Source: Escherichia phage 236Ecol005PP
Length of the DNA stretch: 64,000 bases
Direction: 5' to 3' (one strand)
Sequence record: PP434423.1
Below the pieces are notes generated by a model, which saw nothing but the letters and a program-made list of their open reading frames with translations, did not search any database and was not told where the DNA came from. Position numbers and translations under genes: made by a program. Below are positions 33,315-38,990 of the stretch, one piece after another (positions within the stretch are counted from its first letter, which is position 1; every line of letters starts with the position of its first letter).

Positions 33315-34106
33315 TCACATATTGTGTATAAGCACTTCAGTCTGAAATGATGCACCTTTCTTTTGCTTCCTATACATGGTTTCAAAATATTCAATTTTGA
33401 AATTATTAGAAAGGGCCCAATCTTTTAAAATATAATTATTAATATCGTCTGATAGATTATTAGTGATAATAAATTTAGACTTCGATTGTTTAATTTTGTC
33501 TAATAATTCTAATTCATCCTTTTCTTCCCAGCCTGAATATTTAAATTTAGTAGAAAGATATGGCGGGTCAATGAATAAATTTTTGTTTTCAAAATCCAAA
33601 TCTCTGAATGATTTATTACTAAATGTAAATCTGTGTTGTCTATTTTTAAATTCAGAAAATTTATCCTGCTGAGACTTATTAAAAGAAGTTCTGGAATACT
33701 TGGCTCTATTGGCGAAAGCCGCGTTATAATTCCCATTACTAGAAAATCGGATTAACGAACTGAATGAAAATAAATGTAGAACATAAAGATATAGTCCGTT
33801 TTTGGTTTTATCGTATTCTTTTGACAGATTATAAAAAGGTGCTGAATCTTTGTCATTCAAATTAAAGTCTTCAATAATTTGAACTATATCATTAATTGAA
33901 GATGATTTCATCTTATTATACATATCTATAAGAGGAGTATTAATATCATTACATATAACATCTCTCTGACAATTCATAGAAAATCCAAGACCACCACAAA
34001 AAGCATCCAAAACAGGCTTATCGTCAAAGCGGTTTGAAAATTGTCTAATAAATGGCATATACTTATGTTTTGCACCTGGATATGTTATGGCAGGTAGGTC
34101 TTTCAT
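33315..34106 (-). CDS. Dam-family N6-adenine DNA methyltransferase
   Basis: motif I FCGGLG near N-terminus, motif IV DPPY around residue 181, Dam-like region LYVLH...F..IR..NG.YN. Confidence 0.7.
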   Translation of the reverse strand: MKDLPAITYPGAKHKYMPFIRQFSNRFDDKPVLDAFCGGLGFSMNCQRDVICNDINTPLIDMYNKMKSSSINDIVQIIEDFNLNDKDSAPFYNLSKEYDKTKNGLYLYVLHLFSFSSLIRFSSNGNYNAAFANRAKYSRTSFNKSQQDKFSEFKNRQHRFTFSNKSFRDLDFENKNLFIDPPYLSTKFKYSGWEEKDELELLDKIKQSKSKFIITNNLSDDINNYILKDWALSNNFKIEYFETMYRKQKKGASFQTEVLIHNM

Positions 34107-34149: not shown

Positions 34150-35139
34150 TCATAATTTACAGGATGAACAATCTTCAGCTTTTGGAGTTTCTATTTCGTA
34201 ATCATCAGTACCGGAACCATCACGAGTATTATGATAATAGAAGTTTTTAATGCCATAATACCATCCATATAGCATGTCATCAATCATTATTGACATTGGA
34301 ACCTTTCCTTTTGGAAAAATCTGCGGGTCATAATATGTATTCGCTGAAGCTGATTGACATACCCATTTAAGCATAATAGCTACCTGCGTAAGATAAGGTT
34401 TATTACCTTTCTTAGCTAATTTCCACGTATAATCATATAGGTCTATGTTATGTTCAATATTGGGCACGACTTGATTAAAGGAACCCTCTTTTGATTCTTT
34501 AACAGAGACTGGTCCACGTGGAGGCTCGATACCATTAGTACTGTTAGAAACTTGGGAAGATGACTCACATGGCATAAGTGCTGATAATGTGCTATTACGG
34601 ATGCCAAAGAGCTTAAGGTCTTCCCGCAGCGCCGACCAGTCACAAACGTATTTTGGAGCTGCGATTTGGTCAATCTTTTTATTGTACCAGTCGATAGGTA
34701 ATTCGCCTCGAGACCAACGAGTGTCTGAATAATATTCGCAAGGTCCTTTTTCTTTGGCGAGCTTAATGGATGCTTTAATGAGTCCATACTGTAATCTCTC
34801 AAATAGTTCATGTGTTAAATCGTTAGCATCTTCATAAGAAGCAAAGTTACTTGCCAGCCAAGCTGCATAGTTAGTAACACCTACACCAAGATTTCGACGC
34901 TTTTTAGCTTTTTCTGCTTCAGGAACTGGATATCCTTGGTAATCCAAAAGATTATCAAGAGCACGAACTTGGACTTCTGCTAATTCATTAATTTTATCTT
35001 GGTCTTGCCAATCGAAGTTATCCAACACAAATGCGCTAAGGGTACAAAGCCCCACTTCTCCCTTGTTTTCAATAACTTCTATTGTAGTATACTCATCATC
35101 TTCGTAAAATTCATCTACAAATTCATAATCAATATTCAT
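34150..35139 (-). CDS. nrdA: ribonucleotide reductase alpha subunit, C-terminal piece
   Basis: contains LCTLSAF active-site segment and C-terminal CSSCKL tail; own ATG and RBS inside the 3' end of the HNH gene. Confidence 0.8.
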   Translation of the reverse strand: MNIDYEFVDEFYEDDEYTTIEVIENKGEVGLCTLSAFVLDNFDWQDQDKINELAEVQVRALDNLLDYQGYPVPEAEKAKKRRNLGVGVTNYAAWLASNFASYEDANDLTHELFERLQYGLIKASIKLAKEKGPCEYYSDTRWSRGELPIDWYNKKIDQIAAPKYVCDWSALREDLKLFGIRNSTLSALMPCESSSQVSNSTNGIEPPRGPVSVKESKEGSFNQVVPNIEHNIDLYDYTWKLAKKGNKPYLTQVAIMLKWVCQSASANTYYDPQIFPKGKVPMSIMIDDMLYGWYYGIKNFYYHNTRDGSGTDDYEIETPKAEDCSSCKL

Positions 35140-35974
35140 TTAATTCTTCTACCTTTTTTCTAGTAATTCCTAAAGCTTTAGATGCTCGATGTATTGATTG
35201 ATATTCTATACCGTTTATTTTTACAGCAATTAAGTTATGGGGTTTTAATCCCTTTGGATGAGGTTTACTGACGAAAACTAAATTATCAAGCTCTGAAATC
35301 TTATCCAATTTCTTACACTTAAATCCTTTGTGATGCGCCCGTTTACCTTTACAAACGGCTGACATCGCAGATGGATTTAAATTATGCTCTTTACAAAATT
35401 CGTTAAGACCTCGATGAATTTCCTCATGACCATCTGGAAATGTAAACACCCAAGACGTTTGAAGTCGAGATTTAACTTCTGGAGACATAGGAATACCTTT
35501 GTTCCAGGCCGGTTTGCCTTTATTATTTTCAGATACAGAAATAGCCAATTTTCTTCTAAGCCACCCATGTCGTTTATTGGTGTTCTTTCGTTCAATATTA
35601 TCTTCAGAATAAACACACATCATATTAGCGGCAAATATCAATTTATGATTATCTGGATATATCTTTACTAATAATTGATGAGCTATGTAATGCTCTTCTG
35701 GTGTCAAATCTACCAGGTTTTCCTTTGTATCAGAACCACCAATACACAGAGGTATAATATGATGTGATTCGGTATAGCAATCTAATTTTCTGTTCTTAGC
35801 TTTAGAAATAAGGTTATTGTAAATTTTAGAATAATCCATAACTTTTCCTCTTGTTATGGATTATTTATTAACGGTCTGTGTACTTTATTTGCTTTGAATT
35901 ATACCGCCAGGATTAGCTTCATAAAACTTAGCTACATCCGACTTCTTAATTTTAATTAAACGGGTTTGTTGACT
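35071..35974 (-). mobile_element. inserted HNH homing-endonuclease cassette splitting nrdA (approximate limits)
   Basis: limits set where NrdA similarity stops in the upstream ORF and resumes in the downstream ORF. Confidence 0.6.
35129..35839 (-). CDS. HNH homing endonuclease (Mob-like)
   Basis: N-terminal HNH motif (ESHHIIP...GGSD..EN...LTPEEH), NUMOD-like GKPAWNKG repeat, C-terminal HTH; strong GAGGA RBS. Confidence 0.8.
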   Translation of the reverse strand: MDYSKIYNNLISKAKNRKLDCYTESHHIIPLCIGGSDTKENLVDLTPEEHYIAHQLLVKIYPDNHKLIFAANMMCVYSEDNIERKNTNKRHGWLRRKLAISVSENNKGKPAWNKGIPMSPEVKSRLQTSWVFTFPDGHEEIHRGLNEFCKEHNLNPSAMSAVCKGKRAHHKGFKCKKLDKISELDNLVFVSKPHPKGLKPHNLIAVKINGIEYQSIHRASKALGITRKKVEELNEY

Positions 35975-37318
35975 ATTCACATCATTTGTTGGAATAGCAA
36001 TTTCACAACACAAGTTACTCTGACGAATAGGTGCTTTTTCACGAATAAATGGAGTATAGTTATTCGTATTATCAATGAACTGCACATAAATCCTTGCTGT
36101 TCCTGAGCGTTCAGTCATTAGCAATTCAAACAGTTCACGGGCTTTAATACGCTTTTTACGAATATTAGGGTCTTTTTCTGCGGCTTCATATAATTCACGG
36201 AAACGGTCTTGGTCTTTAAAATAAGAATAATAAAGCTCACCACCCATTTCATGTGGACTGAACAAAGTAATGTAGTCGTTCTTTCCAAAACGTTCCATCA
36301 TCAAATCATTCAGCTGGACGCCATAATCCATATGACGGATACGGTTTTCTTCTACACCTTTGTTATTTTTCAAAACGAGAAGATTTTCAACTTCCAAATG
36401 CCAAATAGGATAATAAGCAGTAGCAGCGCCGCCACGAATTCCACCCTGTGAGCATGATTTAACAGCAGTCTGAAAATGTTTCCAAAAAGGAATAACACCA
36501 GTATGGCGTACTTCACCTGTACCAATCTTAGAACCTTCGGCACGAATCATACCAACGTTAATACCAATTCCAGCGCGTTTGGAGATATATTCAACAATTG
36601 AAGCGGAAACCTTATTGATAGACTTCAGCGAATCACCTGCCTCAATAACAACACATGAACTAAACTGTCGAGTCGGAGTACGACAGCCAGCCATAATAGG
36701 AGTTGGCAATGAAATCTGTCGAGTAGATACTGCTTCATAAAAACGAATAACGTGTTTTAGTCTATCAACAGGTTCATCTTGATGCAATGCCATTCCAATA
36801 GTCATAAATGCAAACTGCGGAGTTTCATAAATTTGACCAGTGGTTTTATCTTTAACTAGATATTTTTCTTTTAATTGCATCGCCCCGGAATAAGTAAATT
36901 CCATATCCCGCTCATGCTTAATTTTTGATTCTAAAAATGTAATTTCTTCTGCTGAATATTTTGACAGCAGTTCAGGGTCATATTTACCTTCATTTACACA
37001 GTAAGAAATATGGTCAATAAATGAACGTGGTTCATATTGTCCGTAAACATGCTTACGAAGAGCAAACATTAAACAGCGTGCAGCTACATATTGATAATCA
37101 GGCTCTTCAACTGAAATAGAATTCGCAGCAGCCTTAATTACAATGGTTTGAATGTCATCAGTGGTCATTCCATCACGGAGATATGATTTAATATTTTCAT
37201 ATAATTCATAAGGATCTACAGATGTTCCTTCAGCTGCCCAAGATAAAACTTTAATAATTTTTTGCGGGTCAAAGCTCTGAGAAACACCACTACTTTTGAT
37301 AACATTAATTAATTGCAT
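35885..37318 (-). CDS. nrdA: ribonucleotide reductase alpha subunit, N-terminal piece
   Basis: ATP-cone and catalytic core up to SNLCCEIAIPTNDVN, then 29 unrelated codons and a stop. Confidence 0.8.
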   Translation of the reverse strand: MQLINVIKSSGVSQSFDPQKIIKVLSWAAEGTSVDPYELYENIKSYLRDGMTTDDIQTIVIKAAANSISVEEPDYQYVAARCLMFALRKHVYGQYEPRSFIDHISYCVNEGKYDPELLSKYSAEEITFLESKIKHERDMEFTYSGAMQLKEKYLVKDKTTGQIYETPQFAFMTIGMALHQDEPVDRLKHVIRFYEAVSTRQISLPTPIMAGCRTPTRQFSSCVVIEAGDSLKSINKVSASIVEYISKRAGIGINVGMIRAEGSKIGTGEVRHTGVIPFWKHFQTAVKSCSQGGIRGGAATAYYPIWHLEVENLLVLKNNKGVEENRIRHMDYGVQLNDLMMERFGKNDYITLFSPHEMGGELYYSYFKDQDRFRELYEAAEKDPNIRKKRIKARELFELLMTERSGTARIYVQFIDNTNNYTPFIREKAPIRQSNLCCEIAIPTNDVNSQQTRLIKIKKSDVAKFYEANPGGIIQSK

Positions 37319-37875: not shown

Positions 37876-38187
37876 TTACACCGCCATTTTTCCTTTAATA
37901 GGAGGGTGTGATTCGTAACCTTTAAGAACGAAATCTTTAGGCCTGAGTTTAAGAGTGTATTCCAATTGTTCTTTAGTAGAAAGATAGCGGAATTTATAAG
38001 GCAATCCGCCTATTACCAGTTCACAAAGCTCTTTAGGTTCACGACGTAAAATTTCTTTACATTGTTCTACGTGATTCATATAGATATGAGTATTACCACC
38101 AGAAAATATCAAATCTCCTGGAATAAGATTACACATCTTAGCTACAATATGAACTAACGCAGCATATGATGCAATATTAAATGGAAG
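37876..38187 (-). CDS. td: thymidylate synthase, exon 2
   Basis: C-terminal TS sequence; the ORF-track initial Met is the intron-terminal ATG. Confidence 0.9.
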   Translation of the reverse strand, partial: LPFNIASYAALVHIVAKMCNLIPGDLIFSGGNTHIYMNHVEQCKEILRREPKELCELVIGGLPYKFRYLSTKEQLEYTLKLRPKDFVLKGYESHPPIKGKMAV

Positions 38188-38441
38188 CATTATGTTCAGA
38201 TAAGGTCGTTAATCTTATCCCGGAATTATATCCAGCTGCATGTCACCATACAGATCAGACTATATCTCCATCTTGATGAAGCAAGATGTCTATCGTTTCG
38301 AGTCACTTGACCCTACTCCCCAAAGGGATAGTCGTTAGGCATTTAGTTCAAAAGAACATTTAGCACGGGATTGTCTACTAGAGAGGTTCCCCGTTTAGAT
38401 AGATTACAAGTATAAGTCACCTTATACTCAGGCCTCAATTA
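38188..38441 (-). ncRNA. group I self-splicing intron in td, lacking any homing-endonuclease ORF
   Basis: starts TAATTGAGGCCTGAG... and ends ...CTGAACATAATG like the T4 td intron core; exon 1 ORF stops at the intron-initial TAA. Confidence 0.85.
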
Positions 38442-38990
38442 ACCCAAGAAAACATCTACACTTCTTTGGTACCATTGTAAATCAAGATAACCATTACGCA
38501 CATTAAACTGATAGAACATATGACAGGGCGGTAATGCCATTTGATTGATTTCAGCTGGATTCCATGCTGAAACGATTTGACGTCGATCAGTTGGTAATTT
38601 TTTAATACGATCAATAGTTTCAACTAATTGATCCACACCACCGAAATCACGCCATTGTTTACCGTATATAGGACCAAGTTCACCACTATGATATCCTAGG
38701 TCTTTAGCCTGGTTTTCATAGTTATCGTCCCAAATAGTTTTACCTTGAATAAGACTACCATGAGTGCGAAGACGTAAATCATTAACATTGGTAGAACCGG
38801 AAATAAACCATAGAAGCTCAGCAATGCAAGCTTTCCAAGCGAGCTTCTTAGTCGTTACTGCAGGAAAACCTTTAGTTAAATCCCAACGTAATTTAGTACC
38901 GAACAAAGCAATTGTTCCTGTGCCTGTTCGGTCATCGGTTTCATAGCCATTTTCAAAAATGTCTTTAATTAAATCTTGGTATTGTTTCAT
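38442..38990 (-). CDS. td: thymidylate synthase, exon 1
   Basis: N-terminal TS sequence including the catalytic PPCH motif. Confidence 0.9.

What the first reader, a model, noticed from the sequence alone, without database searches (positions are those of the whole stretch)
38188..38441. td group I intron is only 254 nt and has no homing-endonuclease ORF
Exon boundaries match the T4 td intron: exon 1 ends CTTGGGT, the intron starts TAATTGAGGCCTGAG and ends CTGAACATAATG. The intron is only 254 nt, with the ORF-bearing loop replaced by a short hairpin (GTTCTTTTGAAC region), so no I-TevI-like endonuclease gene is present. From memory of the T4 sequence, one 3' stem appears to carry paired substitutions, which would favour a natural variant over a simple deletion; that needs alignment. 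The same genome carries an endonuclease insertion in nrdA and lacks the nrdB intron, so its mobile-element complement differs from T4.
Basis: partly seen in the sequence, partly recalled or inferred. Interest (0 to 1): 0.5.

Follow-up and report, generated by a model that had tools for sequence, protein, structure and literature searches.

The report
Endonuclease-less td intron, td/nrdD chimera
A T4-like phage carries a 254-base self-splicing intron in its thymidylate synthase gene that has lost its homing-endonuclease gene, apparently because that part was overwritten with a 12-base hairpin copied from the related nrdD intron; this is a natural case of something known from laboratory work, not a new kind of element.

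Summary
Window 38188-38441 (minus strand) is a 254-nt group I intron (Rfam RF00028, 72.7 bits) at the T4 td insertion site. It has no ORF, and removing it restores a 286-aa thymidylate synthase.

The paired P8 substitution is real, but endonuclease-containing alleles carry it too. The intron core (84 + 158 nt) is 100% identical to the 1016-nt I-TevI-containing intron of phage WL-3. The only difference is that 774 nt (P6a plus I-TevI) is replaced by GTTCTTTTGAAC.

That hairpin lies in a 71-nt block identical to the nrdD (sunY) intron allele of many Tequatrovirus phages. A second ORF-less td allele (GRNsp7) carries CAGCAGTAGCTG, the P6a hairpin of the reference T4 nrdD intron. So the endonuclease was most likely lost by recombination between the td and nrdD introns, not by simple deletion.

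I predict the intron still splices, cannot home on its own, and is immune to I-TevI.

The same 254-nt allele is already in at least four deposited genomes. About 37 of 273 td-intron records carry shortened forms. I rate it a new variant of a known kind, of modest interest.

The parts
38442..38990 (-). td exon 1 (codons 1-183, ends ...CTTGGGT)
   Evidence: The ORF 38439-38990 ends in a TAA formed by the first intron bases. The spliced product is 286 aa, 265/286 identical to the T4-like Td.
38188..38441 (-). 254-nt group I (IA2-type) td intron with no ORF
   Evidence: Rfam RF00028 at 72.7 bits, E=1.6e-16. Aligns to the T4-type td intron. MFE fold -69.1 kcal/mol, z=-2.7, recovers P2-P6a and P7.1-P9.2. 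No ORF in any frame.
37876..38187 (-). td exon 2 (starts CTTCCATTTAAT, includes the stop codon)
38427..38433 (-). Internal guide sequence GCCUGAG (3' strand of P1). It pairs with exon 1 CUUGGGU, with U.G at the 5' splice site.
   Evidence: Read directly from the sequence; identical to the T4-type intron.
38329..38399 (-). 71-nt block (intron positions 43-113: P3'-P4-P5-P6-P6a-P6'-J6/7-start of P7), 100% identical to the N2/JK45-type nrdD intron
   Evidence: Longest-common-substring analysis against L088. Same block in metagenome contig L087, which is an nrdD intron with I-TevII. A T4-type td intron shares only a 42-nt arm and a 17-nt arm with it.
38346..38357 (-). P6a hairpin GUUC-UUUU-GAAC, replacing the 774-nt P6a + I-TevI segment of full-length td introns
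   Evidence: The 12-mer is absent from the T4-like, WL-3, TuIa and Melville inserts.
38269..38288 (-). P8 stem-loop carrying the compensatory A-U to U-A change (intron positions 156:171) plus two loop changes relative to the T4-type intron
   Evidence: Of 16 td alleles, 9 have U-A and 7 have A-U. U-A is also present in I-TevI-containing WL-3.
38328..38333 (-). P7 5' strand GACUAU (part of the guanosine-binding helix; pseudoknot with P3)
   Evidence: Pairs with 38258-38263. Invariant in all 16 td alleles.
38258..38263 (-). P7 3' strand AUAGUC
38188..38188 (-). Terminal (omega) G of the intron
   Evidence: The intron ends ...CAUAAUG|CUUCC, as in the T4-type intron.

Best explanation
This is the thymidylate-synthase (td) self-splicing group I intron of T-even phages, in an allele without its homing endonuclease gene.

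How it works (inferred). After transcription the 254-nt RNA should fold into the standard td ribozyme: P1-P9.2, the P3/P7 pseudoknot, and the P7.1/P7.2 helices typical of subgroup IA2. It should then excise itself by guanosine-initiated transesterification, joining ...VFLG to LPFNIA... to give a 286-aa enzyme. With no I-TevI it cannot home by itself. Because the intron interrupts the I-TevI recognition site at the exon junction, the allele should also resist I-TevI from a co-infecting phage.

Origin. It derives from a full-length, I-TevI-containing td intron of the WL-3 type. Recombination or gene conversion with the paralogous nrdD (sunY) intron, using conserved core sequences as homology arms (42 nt on the left, 17 nt on the right), replaced the 774-nt P6a + I-TevI segment with the nrdD intron's 12-nt P6a hairpin.

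Shown here: the sequence identities, the intact helices, the absence of an ORF, and the distribution among genomes. Inferred: that it splices, that the donor was nrdD and the recipient td, and what triggered the event. One possible trigger is a double-strand break inside the intron, for example weak I-TevI cleavage at its own operator, repaired from the ectopic nrdD intron.
For: Identity and intactness:
- Rfam full-length hit.
- The core is 241/241 identical to the I-TevI-containing WL-3 intron and differs from the T4-type core at 6 positions.
- Every pair of P2-P9.2 stays canonical across the 14 Tequatrovirus-type td alleles. The only exceptions among all 16 are alignment gaps in the shorter P8 of the two Gelderlandvirus alleles and one G-G at 160:167.
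- P6 pair G78:C103 matches the published G78-C865 pair, and laboratory td constructs with shortened P6a self-splice (PMC2729099).

Not a deletion:
- Window intron = WL-3 prefix (84 nt) + 12 foreign nt + WL-3 suffix (158 nt). The 12-mer is absent from four full-length inserts.

The nrdD link:
- Intron positions 43-113 are identical to the nrdD intron of phage N2 and about 45 other Tequatrovirus records.
- Independent second case: the GRNsp7 td intron carries CAGCAGTAGCTG in a 28-nt block identical to the reference T4 nrdD intron.
- The window and GRNsp7 td cores differ at 1 of 241 nt, but their hairpins differ at 10 of 12 nt. At least one hairpin must therefore have been imported.
- P6a evolves fast in this intron family: 78 IMG/VR homologues with the same P6 flanks have 56 different hairpins, and 98% of the hairpins form a stem of at least 4 bp. 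Exact hairpin identity therefore implies recent shared origin.

Immobility and cleavage:
- An ORF-deleted td intron (tdDelta1-3) is used as the negative donor control in homing assays (PMC1865063).
- I-TevI binds an operator inside its own intron and cleaves it about 100-fold less well than the homing site (PMC2988022).
Against: - Splicing was not tested.
- Direction of transfer is inferred only from parsimony: the nrdD alleles occur in about 45 and about 25 records, the chimeric td alleles in about 5 and 1.
- The N2-type nrdD allele could instead have received the 71-nt block from an old ORF-less td intron.
- The window does not contain nrdD, so I cannot say whether this genome carries the donor allele.
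- HMD-9 has the same td allele but shows no second match. GRNsp7's resident nrdD intron is the other type. So the events did not occur in the present genomes.
- The GRNsp7 case has homology arms of only 7-8 nt, which is short for homologous recombination.
- No donor was found for the third 12-nt hairpin, GTTCGAAAGAAC of Salmonella phage SEA1.
Confidence: 0.72

Rival explanations
1. Simple internal deletion: a T4-type td intron lost the I-TevI ORF by one deletion between short repeats, as laboratory constructs and several natural alleles have.
For: Such alleles exist. The 320-nt (HP3 group), 315-nt (Klebsiella phage EI, joined at a repeated AAGTGGAAT), 445-nt (e11/2 group) and 262/263-nt (BYEP01, PD112) forms can each be derived from the 1016-nt intron by one deletion.
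Against: After subtracting the common prefix (84 nt) and suffix (158 nt) shared with WL-3, 12 nt remain that occur nowhere in the 774-nt insert of the T4-like, WL-3, TuIa or Melville introns. Those 12 nt are identical to the nrdD intron's P6a.
Confidence: 0.04
2. Ancestral state: this is a surviving ORF-less td intron that I-TevI never invaded. It shares its P6a with the nrdD intron by common descent, or it donated the block to nrdD.
For: Group I introns are thought to have been ORF-less originally (PMC3073962). Short P6a hairpins are the norm in 78 related phage introns. A Gelderlandvirus td intron (SEA1) has the same GUUC/GAAC stem with a GAAA loop. The N2-type nrdD allele is td-like across P4-P6 whereas the T4-type is not, so some td-to-nrdD transfer is plausible.
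Against: The core is identical (241/241) to an I-TevI-containing allele and nested within the diversity of such alleles. The same hairpin sits on two different cores (window/WL-3-type and CJY920/T4-type). SEA1's core is closest to I-TevI-containing Melville, with 8 differences. A near-identical td core (1 difference) carries a completely different hairpin that matches the other nrdD allele. I-TevI-containing td introns span at least two genera, Tequatrovirus and Gelderlandvirus, while the 254-nt alleles are rare.
Confidence: 0.18
3. Assembly artefact: short-read assembly collapsed the td and nrdD introns at their shared core sequences.
For: The two introns share exact repeats of 42 and 17 nt.
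Against: The path would have to enter and leave nrdD sequence within 12 nt through a 17-nt repeat, shorter than usual assembly k-mers, and would have to drop 774 nt. The identical allele occurs in independently sequenced phages (N2, HMD-9, SP21535, and CJY920 on another core). In GRNsp7 the shared arms are only 7-8 nt.
Confidence: 0.02

Closest known systems
Phage T4 td group I intron (1016 nt, encodes I-TevI)
   Same: Same host gene, same insertion site, same P1/IGS, and the same core helices. The core is 235/241 identical to the T4-type intron and 241/241 identical to the WL-3 allele.
   Different: It lacks the 774-nt P6a extension that carries I-TevI with its promoter, operator and ribosome-binding-site hairpin. 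P6a is a foreign 12-nt hairpin.
T-even nrdD (sunY) group I intron, N2/JK45-type allele (encodes I-TevII downstream of P9)
   Same: A 71-nt block covering P4-P5-P6-P6a-J6/7 is identical, including the GUUC-UUUU-GAAC hairpin.
   Different: Different host gene. P1, P2, P7.1, P7.2, P8 and the P9 region differ, and it carries its own endonuclease ORF 3' of the core.
Laboratory recombinants between T4 introns (Bryk & Belfort 1990, Nature 346:394, 'Spontaneous shuffling of domains between introns of phage T4'; Hall, Liu & Shub 1989, Nature 340:574). Cited from memory; neither is in the searchable library.
   Same: Recombination between different T4 introns at conserved core sequences, giving hybrid introns that still splice.
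   Different: Those were selected or observed in laboratory crosses. This is a natural allele found in several field isolates, and here the exchange removes the homing endonuclease gene.
Engineered ORF-less td introns (tdDelta1-3; constructs with shortened P6a)
   Same: About 250-390 nt td ribozymes without I-TevI. Shortened-P6a constructs self-splice (PMC2729099). tdDelta1-3 does not home (PMC1865063).
   Different: They are man-made deletions that keep td's own P6a stem.
Deletion-derived ORF-less or truncated td introns in deposited Tequatrovirus genomes (262/263, 315, 320 and 445 nt)
   Same: Natural loss of I-TevI from the same intron, consistent with the homing-endonuclease degeneration cycle. 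From memory, Sandegren & Sjoberg 2004 (J Biol Chem 279:22218) reported deleted intron endonuclease genes in T-even-like phages.
   Different: Each can be explained by one deletion within td sequence. The window allele cannot.
Endonuclease-lacking introns mobilised by free-standing endonucleases (collaborative or trans homing)
   Same: An ORF-less intron in a phage nucleotide-metabolism gene, with free-standing endonuclease genes in the neighbourhood (PMC3984707; PMC2790892).
   Different: No endonuclease gene lies next to td in this window. The nearest is the HNH ORF inside nrdA, about 2.3 kb away. Phage N2 does have an I-TevI paralogue (46% identity) next to td.

Membership tests
Group I intron (Rfam RF00028), subgroup IA2-like | Covariance-model score above the curated threshold over the full model | tested here: met
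   72.7 bits against gathering score 50, model positions 1-253 of 253, E=1.6e-16.
Group I intron (Rfam RF00028), subgroup IA2-like | P1 formed by the 5' exon and an internal guide sequence, with a U.G wobble at the 5' splice site, and a terminal G at the 3' end | tested here: met
   Exon CUUGGGU pairs with intron GCCUGAG (positions 9-15). The intron ends ...AAUG.
Group I intron (Rfam RF00028), subgroup IA2-like | Core helices P3-P9 including the P3/P7 pseudoknot, plus the extra P7.1/P7.2 helices | tested here: met
   The MFE fold recovers P2, P3, P4, P5, P6, P6a, P7.1, P7.2, P8, P9, P9.1 and P9.2. P7 was assigned by hand. All assigned pairs are canonical in the window allele.
Group I intron (Rfam RF00028), subgroup IA2-like | Self-splicing activity | not testable with these tools
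   Predicted from identity to the td ribozyme core and from active shortened-P6a constructs (PMC2729099).
T-even td intron (orthologue of the T4 td intron) | Same insertion site in td and a homologous core sequence | tested here: met
   Exon junction ...VFLG|LPFN..., and 84 + 157 nt of core at 97.5-100% identity.
Mobile (homing) group I intron | An intron-encoded homing endonuclease (I-TevI, GIY-YIG) in the P6a loop | tested here: not met
   No ORF in six frames, and no I-TevI homologue in the window by tblastn (best E=0.64).
Hybrid ('domain-shuffled') T-even intron | A segment identical to a different intron, bounded by core sequences conserved between the two | tested here: met
   The 12-nt hairpin lies in a 71-nt block identical to the nrdD intron. 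The arms (42 and 17 nt) are shared by T4-type td and N2-type nrdD introns.
Hybrid ('domain-shuffled') T-even intron | Direction of transfer (nrdD to td), and that it arose by recombination rather than descent | tested here: inconclusive
   Supported by parsimony and by the second td/nrdD hairpin pair. The reverse direction is not excluded for the 71-nt block.
Collaborative/trans-homing system | A free-standing endonuclease gene next to the ORF-less intron that cuts intronless alleles | tested here: not met
   The td neighbours are frd, a 108-aa ORF, and nrdA.2-like and nrdA.1-like ORFs. There is no nuclease gene within about 2 kb.

The most novel reading that the evidence does not exclude
Conversion from the nrdD intron to the td intron at conserved ribozyme core sequences may be a recurrent natural route for purging I-TevI from the td intron while keeping the intron, and with it the resistance to I-TevI. 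It could even be self-inflicted: I-TevI occasionally cuts its own operator inside the intron, and the break is repaired from the ectopic nrdD intron. P6a would then behave as an exchangeable cassette among paralogous phage introns. That would add a 'paralogue-templated endonuclease loss' step to the homing-endonuclease life cycle.
Probability: 0.4. Interest if true: 0.55.

Novelty: new variant of a known kind. Interest (0 to 1): 0.35.

Why it matters
The td intron with I-TevI is the textbook mobile group I intron. The standard picture of the homing-endonuclease life cycle has the endonuclease decaying by point mutation and deletion.

Here the endonuclease gene was removed cleanly and the ribozyme left intact, by copying a hairpin from a paralogous intron elsewhere in the genome. 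A second td allele matching the other nrdD allele suggests this happened more than once.

This gives a natural counterpart to the laboratory 'intron domain shuffling' of 1989-1990. It also gives a simple, testable route for endonuclease loss.

There is a practical point for annotation. Deposited genomes list these td genes as two separate 'thymidylate synthase' CDSs with no intron feature.

The element itself is an ordinary, probably functional, immobile td intron.

Tried and rejected
- Literature. I looked for Sandegren & Sjoberg 2004 by DOI and for Bryk & Belfort 1990 by title phrases. Neither is held, so both are cited from memory only.
- T4_ev151 as a T4 reference for nrdD. Its nrdD is intronless, so I switched to NC_000866.
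- Window-type hairpin in other collections. IMG/VR gave 0 hits. Metagenomes gave 1 hit, which was an nrdD intron.
- td-specific chimeric junctions. IMG/VR and GTDB genomes gave 0 hits.
- Donor for the SEA1 hairpin GTTCGAAAGAAC and for any other copy of CAGCAGTAGCTG in the phage collection. Only the reference-T4-type nrdD intron matched the latter; nothing matched the former.
- Simple deletion: rejected.
- Assembly artefact: rejected, see rivals.
- A neighbouring free-standing endonuclease acting as helper: none is near td in this window.
- Exon co-conversion tracts. The identical intron sits in td exon 1 sequences that differ by about 14%, with differences starting 10 nt upstream of the intron in N2. 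This shows the allele moves between backgrounds but does not show how.

Full report
**1. What is there**

Read on the minus strand, window 38990-37876 is the thymidylate synthase gene td, interrupted by a 254-nt insert at 38441-38188. Exon 1 ends ...TTCTTGGGT. The insert begins TAATTGAGGCCTGAG and ends CTGAACATAATG. Exon 2 begins CTTCCATTTAAT.

Rfam's group I intron model matches the insert over its full length: 72.7 bits against a gathering score of 50, E=1.6e-16. It is the only Rfam family found in the 64-kb window.

Removing the insert gives an uninterrupted 286-aa thymidylate synthase, 265/286 identical to that of the T4-like reference. All six reading frames of the insert are full of stop codons. 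The best tblastn match to I-TevI anywhere in the window has E=0.64.

**2. Anatomy**

The MFE fold (-69.1 kcal/mol, z=-2.7 against shuffles) recovers P2, P3, P4, P5, the 2-bp P6, a 4-bp P6a (GUUC-UUUU-GAAC), P7.1, P7.2, P8, P9, P9.1 and P9.2.

I assigned two helices by hand. P1 pairs exon CUUGGGU with intron GCCUGAG, with U.G at the splice site. P7 pairs GACUAU with AUAGUC and forms a pseudoknot with P3. Both are identical to the T4-type intron.

Across 16 td intron alleles gathered from public phage genomes, every pair in these helices is invariant or changes to another canonical pair. The exceptions are a shorter P8 in the two Gelderlandvirus alleles, which the alignment shows as gaps, and one G-G at 160:167. 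P6 pair G78:C103 corresponds to the published G78-C865 pair. Laboratory td constructs with shortened P6a regions self-splice (PMC2729099). Splicing competence is thus well supported, but it remains an inference.

**3. Comparison with full-length td introns**

Relative to a T4-type 1016-nt intron, the first 84 nt are identical and the last 157 nt differ at six positions. The differences are:
- a compensatory A-U to U-A change in P8, plus two changes in the P8 loop;
- a G-C to G.U change in P9;
- a G.U to A-U change in P9.2.

The full-length, I-TevI-containing intron of phage vB_EcoM_WL-3 has exactly the same core, 241/241.

The window intron equals the WL-3 prefix (84 nt), plus GTTCTTTTGAAC, plus the WL-3 suffix (158 nt). 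That 12-mer occurs nowhere in the 774-nt P6a/I-TevI insert of the T4-like, WL-3, TuIa or Melville introns. A single deletion cannot produce this allele.

**4. Where the hairpin comes from**

A metagenome scan for the hairpin with its P6 flanks returned one contig. Its intron differs from td in P1, P2, P7.1, P7.2, P8 and P9, and it is followed by a GIY-YIG ORF. It is the nrdD (sunY) intron with I-TevII, present at 99.6% identity or better in at least 25 listed Tequatrovirus records.

Window intron positions 43-113 (38329-38399) are 100% identical to this nrdD allele. A T4-type td intron shares only the flanking 42 nt and 17 nt with it.

The reference T4 nrdD intron (NC_000866) is a different allele, with P6a = CAGCAGTAGCTG. 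That exact hairpin, in a 28-nt identical block, is the P6a of another 254-nt ORF-less td intron, in Salmonella phage GRNsp7.

The two ORF-less td alleles differ at 1 of 241 core positions but at 10 of 12 hairpin positions. Each hairpin matches one of the two nrdD alleles. At least one hairpin, and most simply both, was therefore imported into td from an nrdD intron.

That exact identity is meaningful because P6a evolves fast. In IMG/VR, 78 introns sharing the same P6 flanks carry 56 different hairpins, and 98% of them form a terminal stem of at least 4 bp, against 3% of shuffled versions.

**5. Direction and alternatives**

The nrdD alleles are common, in about 45 and about 25 records. The chimeric td alleles are rare. 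The chimeric td cores nest within the diversity of I-TevI-containing alleles. The same GTTCTTTTGAAC hairpin sits on two cores, WL-3-type in the window, HMD-9 and N2, and T4-type in CJY920. This favours nrdD-to-td conversion followed by spread through recombination.

The reverse direction is not excluded for the 71-nt block. An old ORF-less td intron could have donated its P4-P6 domain to nrdD. The N2-type nrdD allele is td-like in P4-P6 whereas the T4-type is not. A Gelderlandvirus td intron (SEA1) has GUUC-GAAA-GAAC with no donor in the databases. I give that rival about 0.18.

An assembly artefact is very unlikely. The path would have to switch twice within 12 nt through a 17-nt repeat, and the allele is present in several independently sequenced phages.

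**6. How it likely behaves**

I predict a self-splicing but immobile intron. An ORF-deleted td intron is the standard negative donor in homing assays (PMC1865063).

Because the intron interrupts the I-TevI recognition sequence at the exon junction, the allele should resist I-TevI from co-infecting phages. This rests on established knowledge of td homing (PMC2988022).

The identical 254-nt intron lies in td exon 1 backgrounds that differ by about 14%, with the first difference 10 nt upstream of the intron in N2. So the allele has moved between phages, by general recombination or with help in trans.

One possible trigger for the original event is the weak cleavage by I-TevI of its own operator inside the intron (PMC2988022), with repair from the ectopic nrdD intron. 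This is speculation.

**7. How new is it**

In the phage collection, 273 records carry the td intron, and about 37 (RefSeq duplicates included) carry shortened forms:

| Intron length | Phages |
|---|---|
| 254 nt, identical to the window | N2, HMD-9 (both full length); SP21535 (212 of 254 nt only; the record starts inside the intron) |
| 254 nt, same hairpin on a T4-type core | CJY920 |
| 254 nt, other hairpin | GRNsp7 |
| 250 nt | SEA1 |
| 262/263 nt | BYEP01, PD112, CE1, 215Ecol030PP |
| 315 nt | Klebsiella phage EI |
| about 320 nt | HP3 group |
| 445 nt | e11/2 group |

Loss of intron endonuclease genes in T-even-like phages was reported by Sandegren & Sjoberg 2004. Recombination between T4 introns at conserved core elements was shown in the laboratory by Hall, Liu & Shub 1989 and Bryk & Belfort 1990. 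All three are cited from memory because none is in the searchable library.

I found no paper describing a natural td/nrdD chimera, but my literature access is limited. I therefore rate this a new variant of a known kind with modest interest (0.35). The element is ordinary. The route by which it lost I-TevI is the interesting part.

**8. Side claims**

nrdA is split into a 477-aa N-terminal part (ATP-cone, all-alpha domain, first half of the barrel) and a 329-aa C-terminal part (second half of the barrel). The intervening 236-aa ORF has an I-HmuI-like NUMOD domain and an HNH-like motif. nrdB is an uninterrupted 389-aa ORF. A D12-class adenine methyltransferase gene lies between nrdA and nrdB.

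The same split nrdA is annotated in many Tequatrovirus genomes. No deposited genome matches this 12-kb region better than 93% coverage at 95% identity, so the phage is a new mosaic of known modules.

Noticed in passing
window 34150-37318 (-): nrdA is in two pieces: a 477-aa N part (35885-37318) and a 329-aa C part (34150-35139). They are separated by a 236-aa ORF (35129-35839) with an I-HmuI-like NUMOD domain and an HNH-like motif. Each half has its own extension at the break, so this looks like a genes-in-pieces arrangement rather than an intron or intein. Many Tequatrovirus records annotate the same layout.
   Followed up: partly
window 33315-34106 (-): A D12-class N6-adenine DNA methyltransferase gene (DPPY motif, Pfam PF02086, E=1e-23) lies between nrdA and nrdB, where T4 has mobE.
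   Followed up: partly
L013 7354-8085 (phage N2, ON645936.1 143353-144084): Phage N2 has the identical 254-nt ORF-less td intron. It also encodes a free-standing GIY-YIG endonuclease, 46% identical to I-TevI over its full length, about 350 bp from td exon 2 on the opposite strand. This could be a collaborative-homing arrangement. It is absent from this window.
   Followed up: partly
L088 1560-1830 (N2 nrdD intron) and L090 (reference T4 nrdD intron): The two nrdD intron alleles are themselves mosaics relative to td. The N2-type shares P4-P6 (42 + 17 nt exact) with td. The T4-type instead shares blocks in P7.2 and P9 (15-21 nt exact). This suggests repeated exchange in more than one segment.
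   Followed up: partly
L059, L034, L028, L046, L080 (IMG/VR contigs): Several viral contigs of about 50-155 kb (plus one of 12 kb) carry two to four related IA2 introns close together. L059 has four copies within 1.5 kb. All have the conserved P6 flanks but different P6a hairpins.
   Followed up: no
L010 701-950 (Salmonella phage SEA1, Gelderlandvirus): A 250-nt ORF-less td intron whose P6a has the same GUUC/GAAC stem but a GAAA loop. Its genus relatives (Melville, STP4-a) carry an I-TevI-like gene. No donor for this hairpin was found in any collection.
   Followed up: yes
window td exon 1 compared with L003 (N2) and L086 (WL-3): The 254-nt intron is 100% identical between the window and N2, but the exon 1 sequences differ at 76 of 549 nt, starting 10 nt upstream of the intron. 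Exon 2 is identical for 140 nt. The intron allele has therefore been transferred between divergent td backgrounds.
   Followed up: partly
L012 (Klebsiella phage EI, MN106245.1) and MK327933.1 (vB_EcoM_G2285): Annotation oddities. The td CDS of phage EI is annotated 'with intron of plasmid pMTL007C-E2'. G2285 has a group I intron in its DNA polymerase gene that is about 76% similar to the td intron.
   Followed up: no
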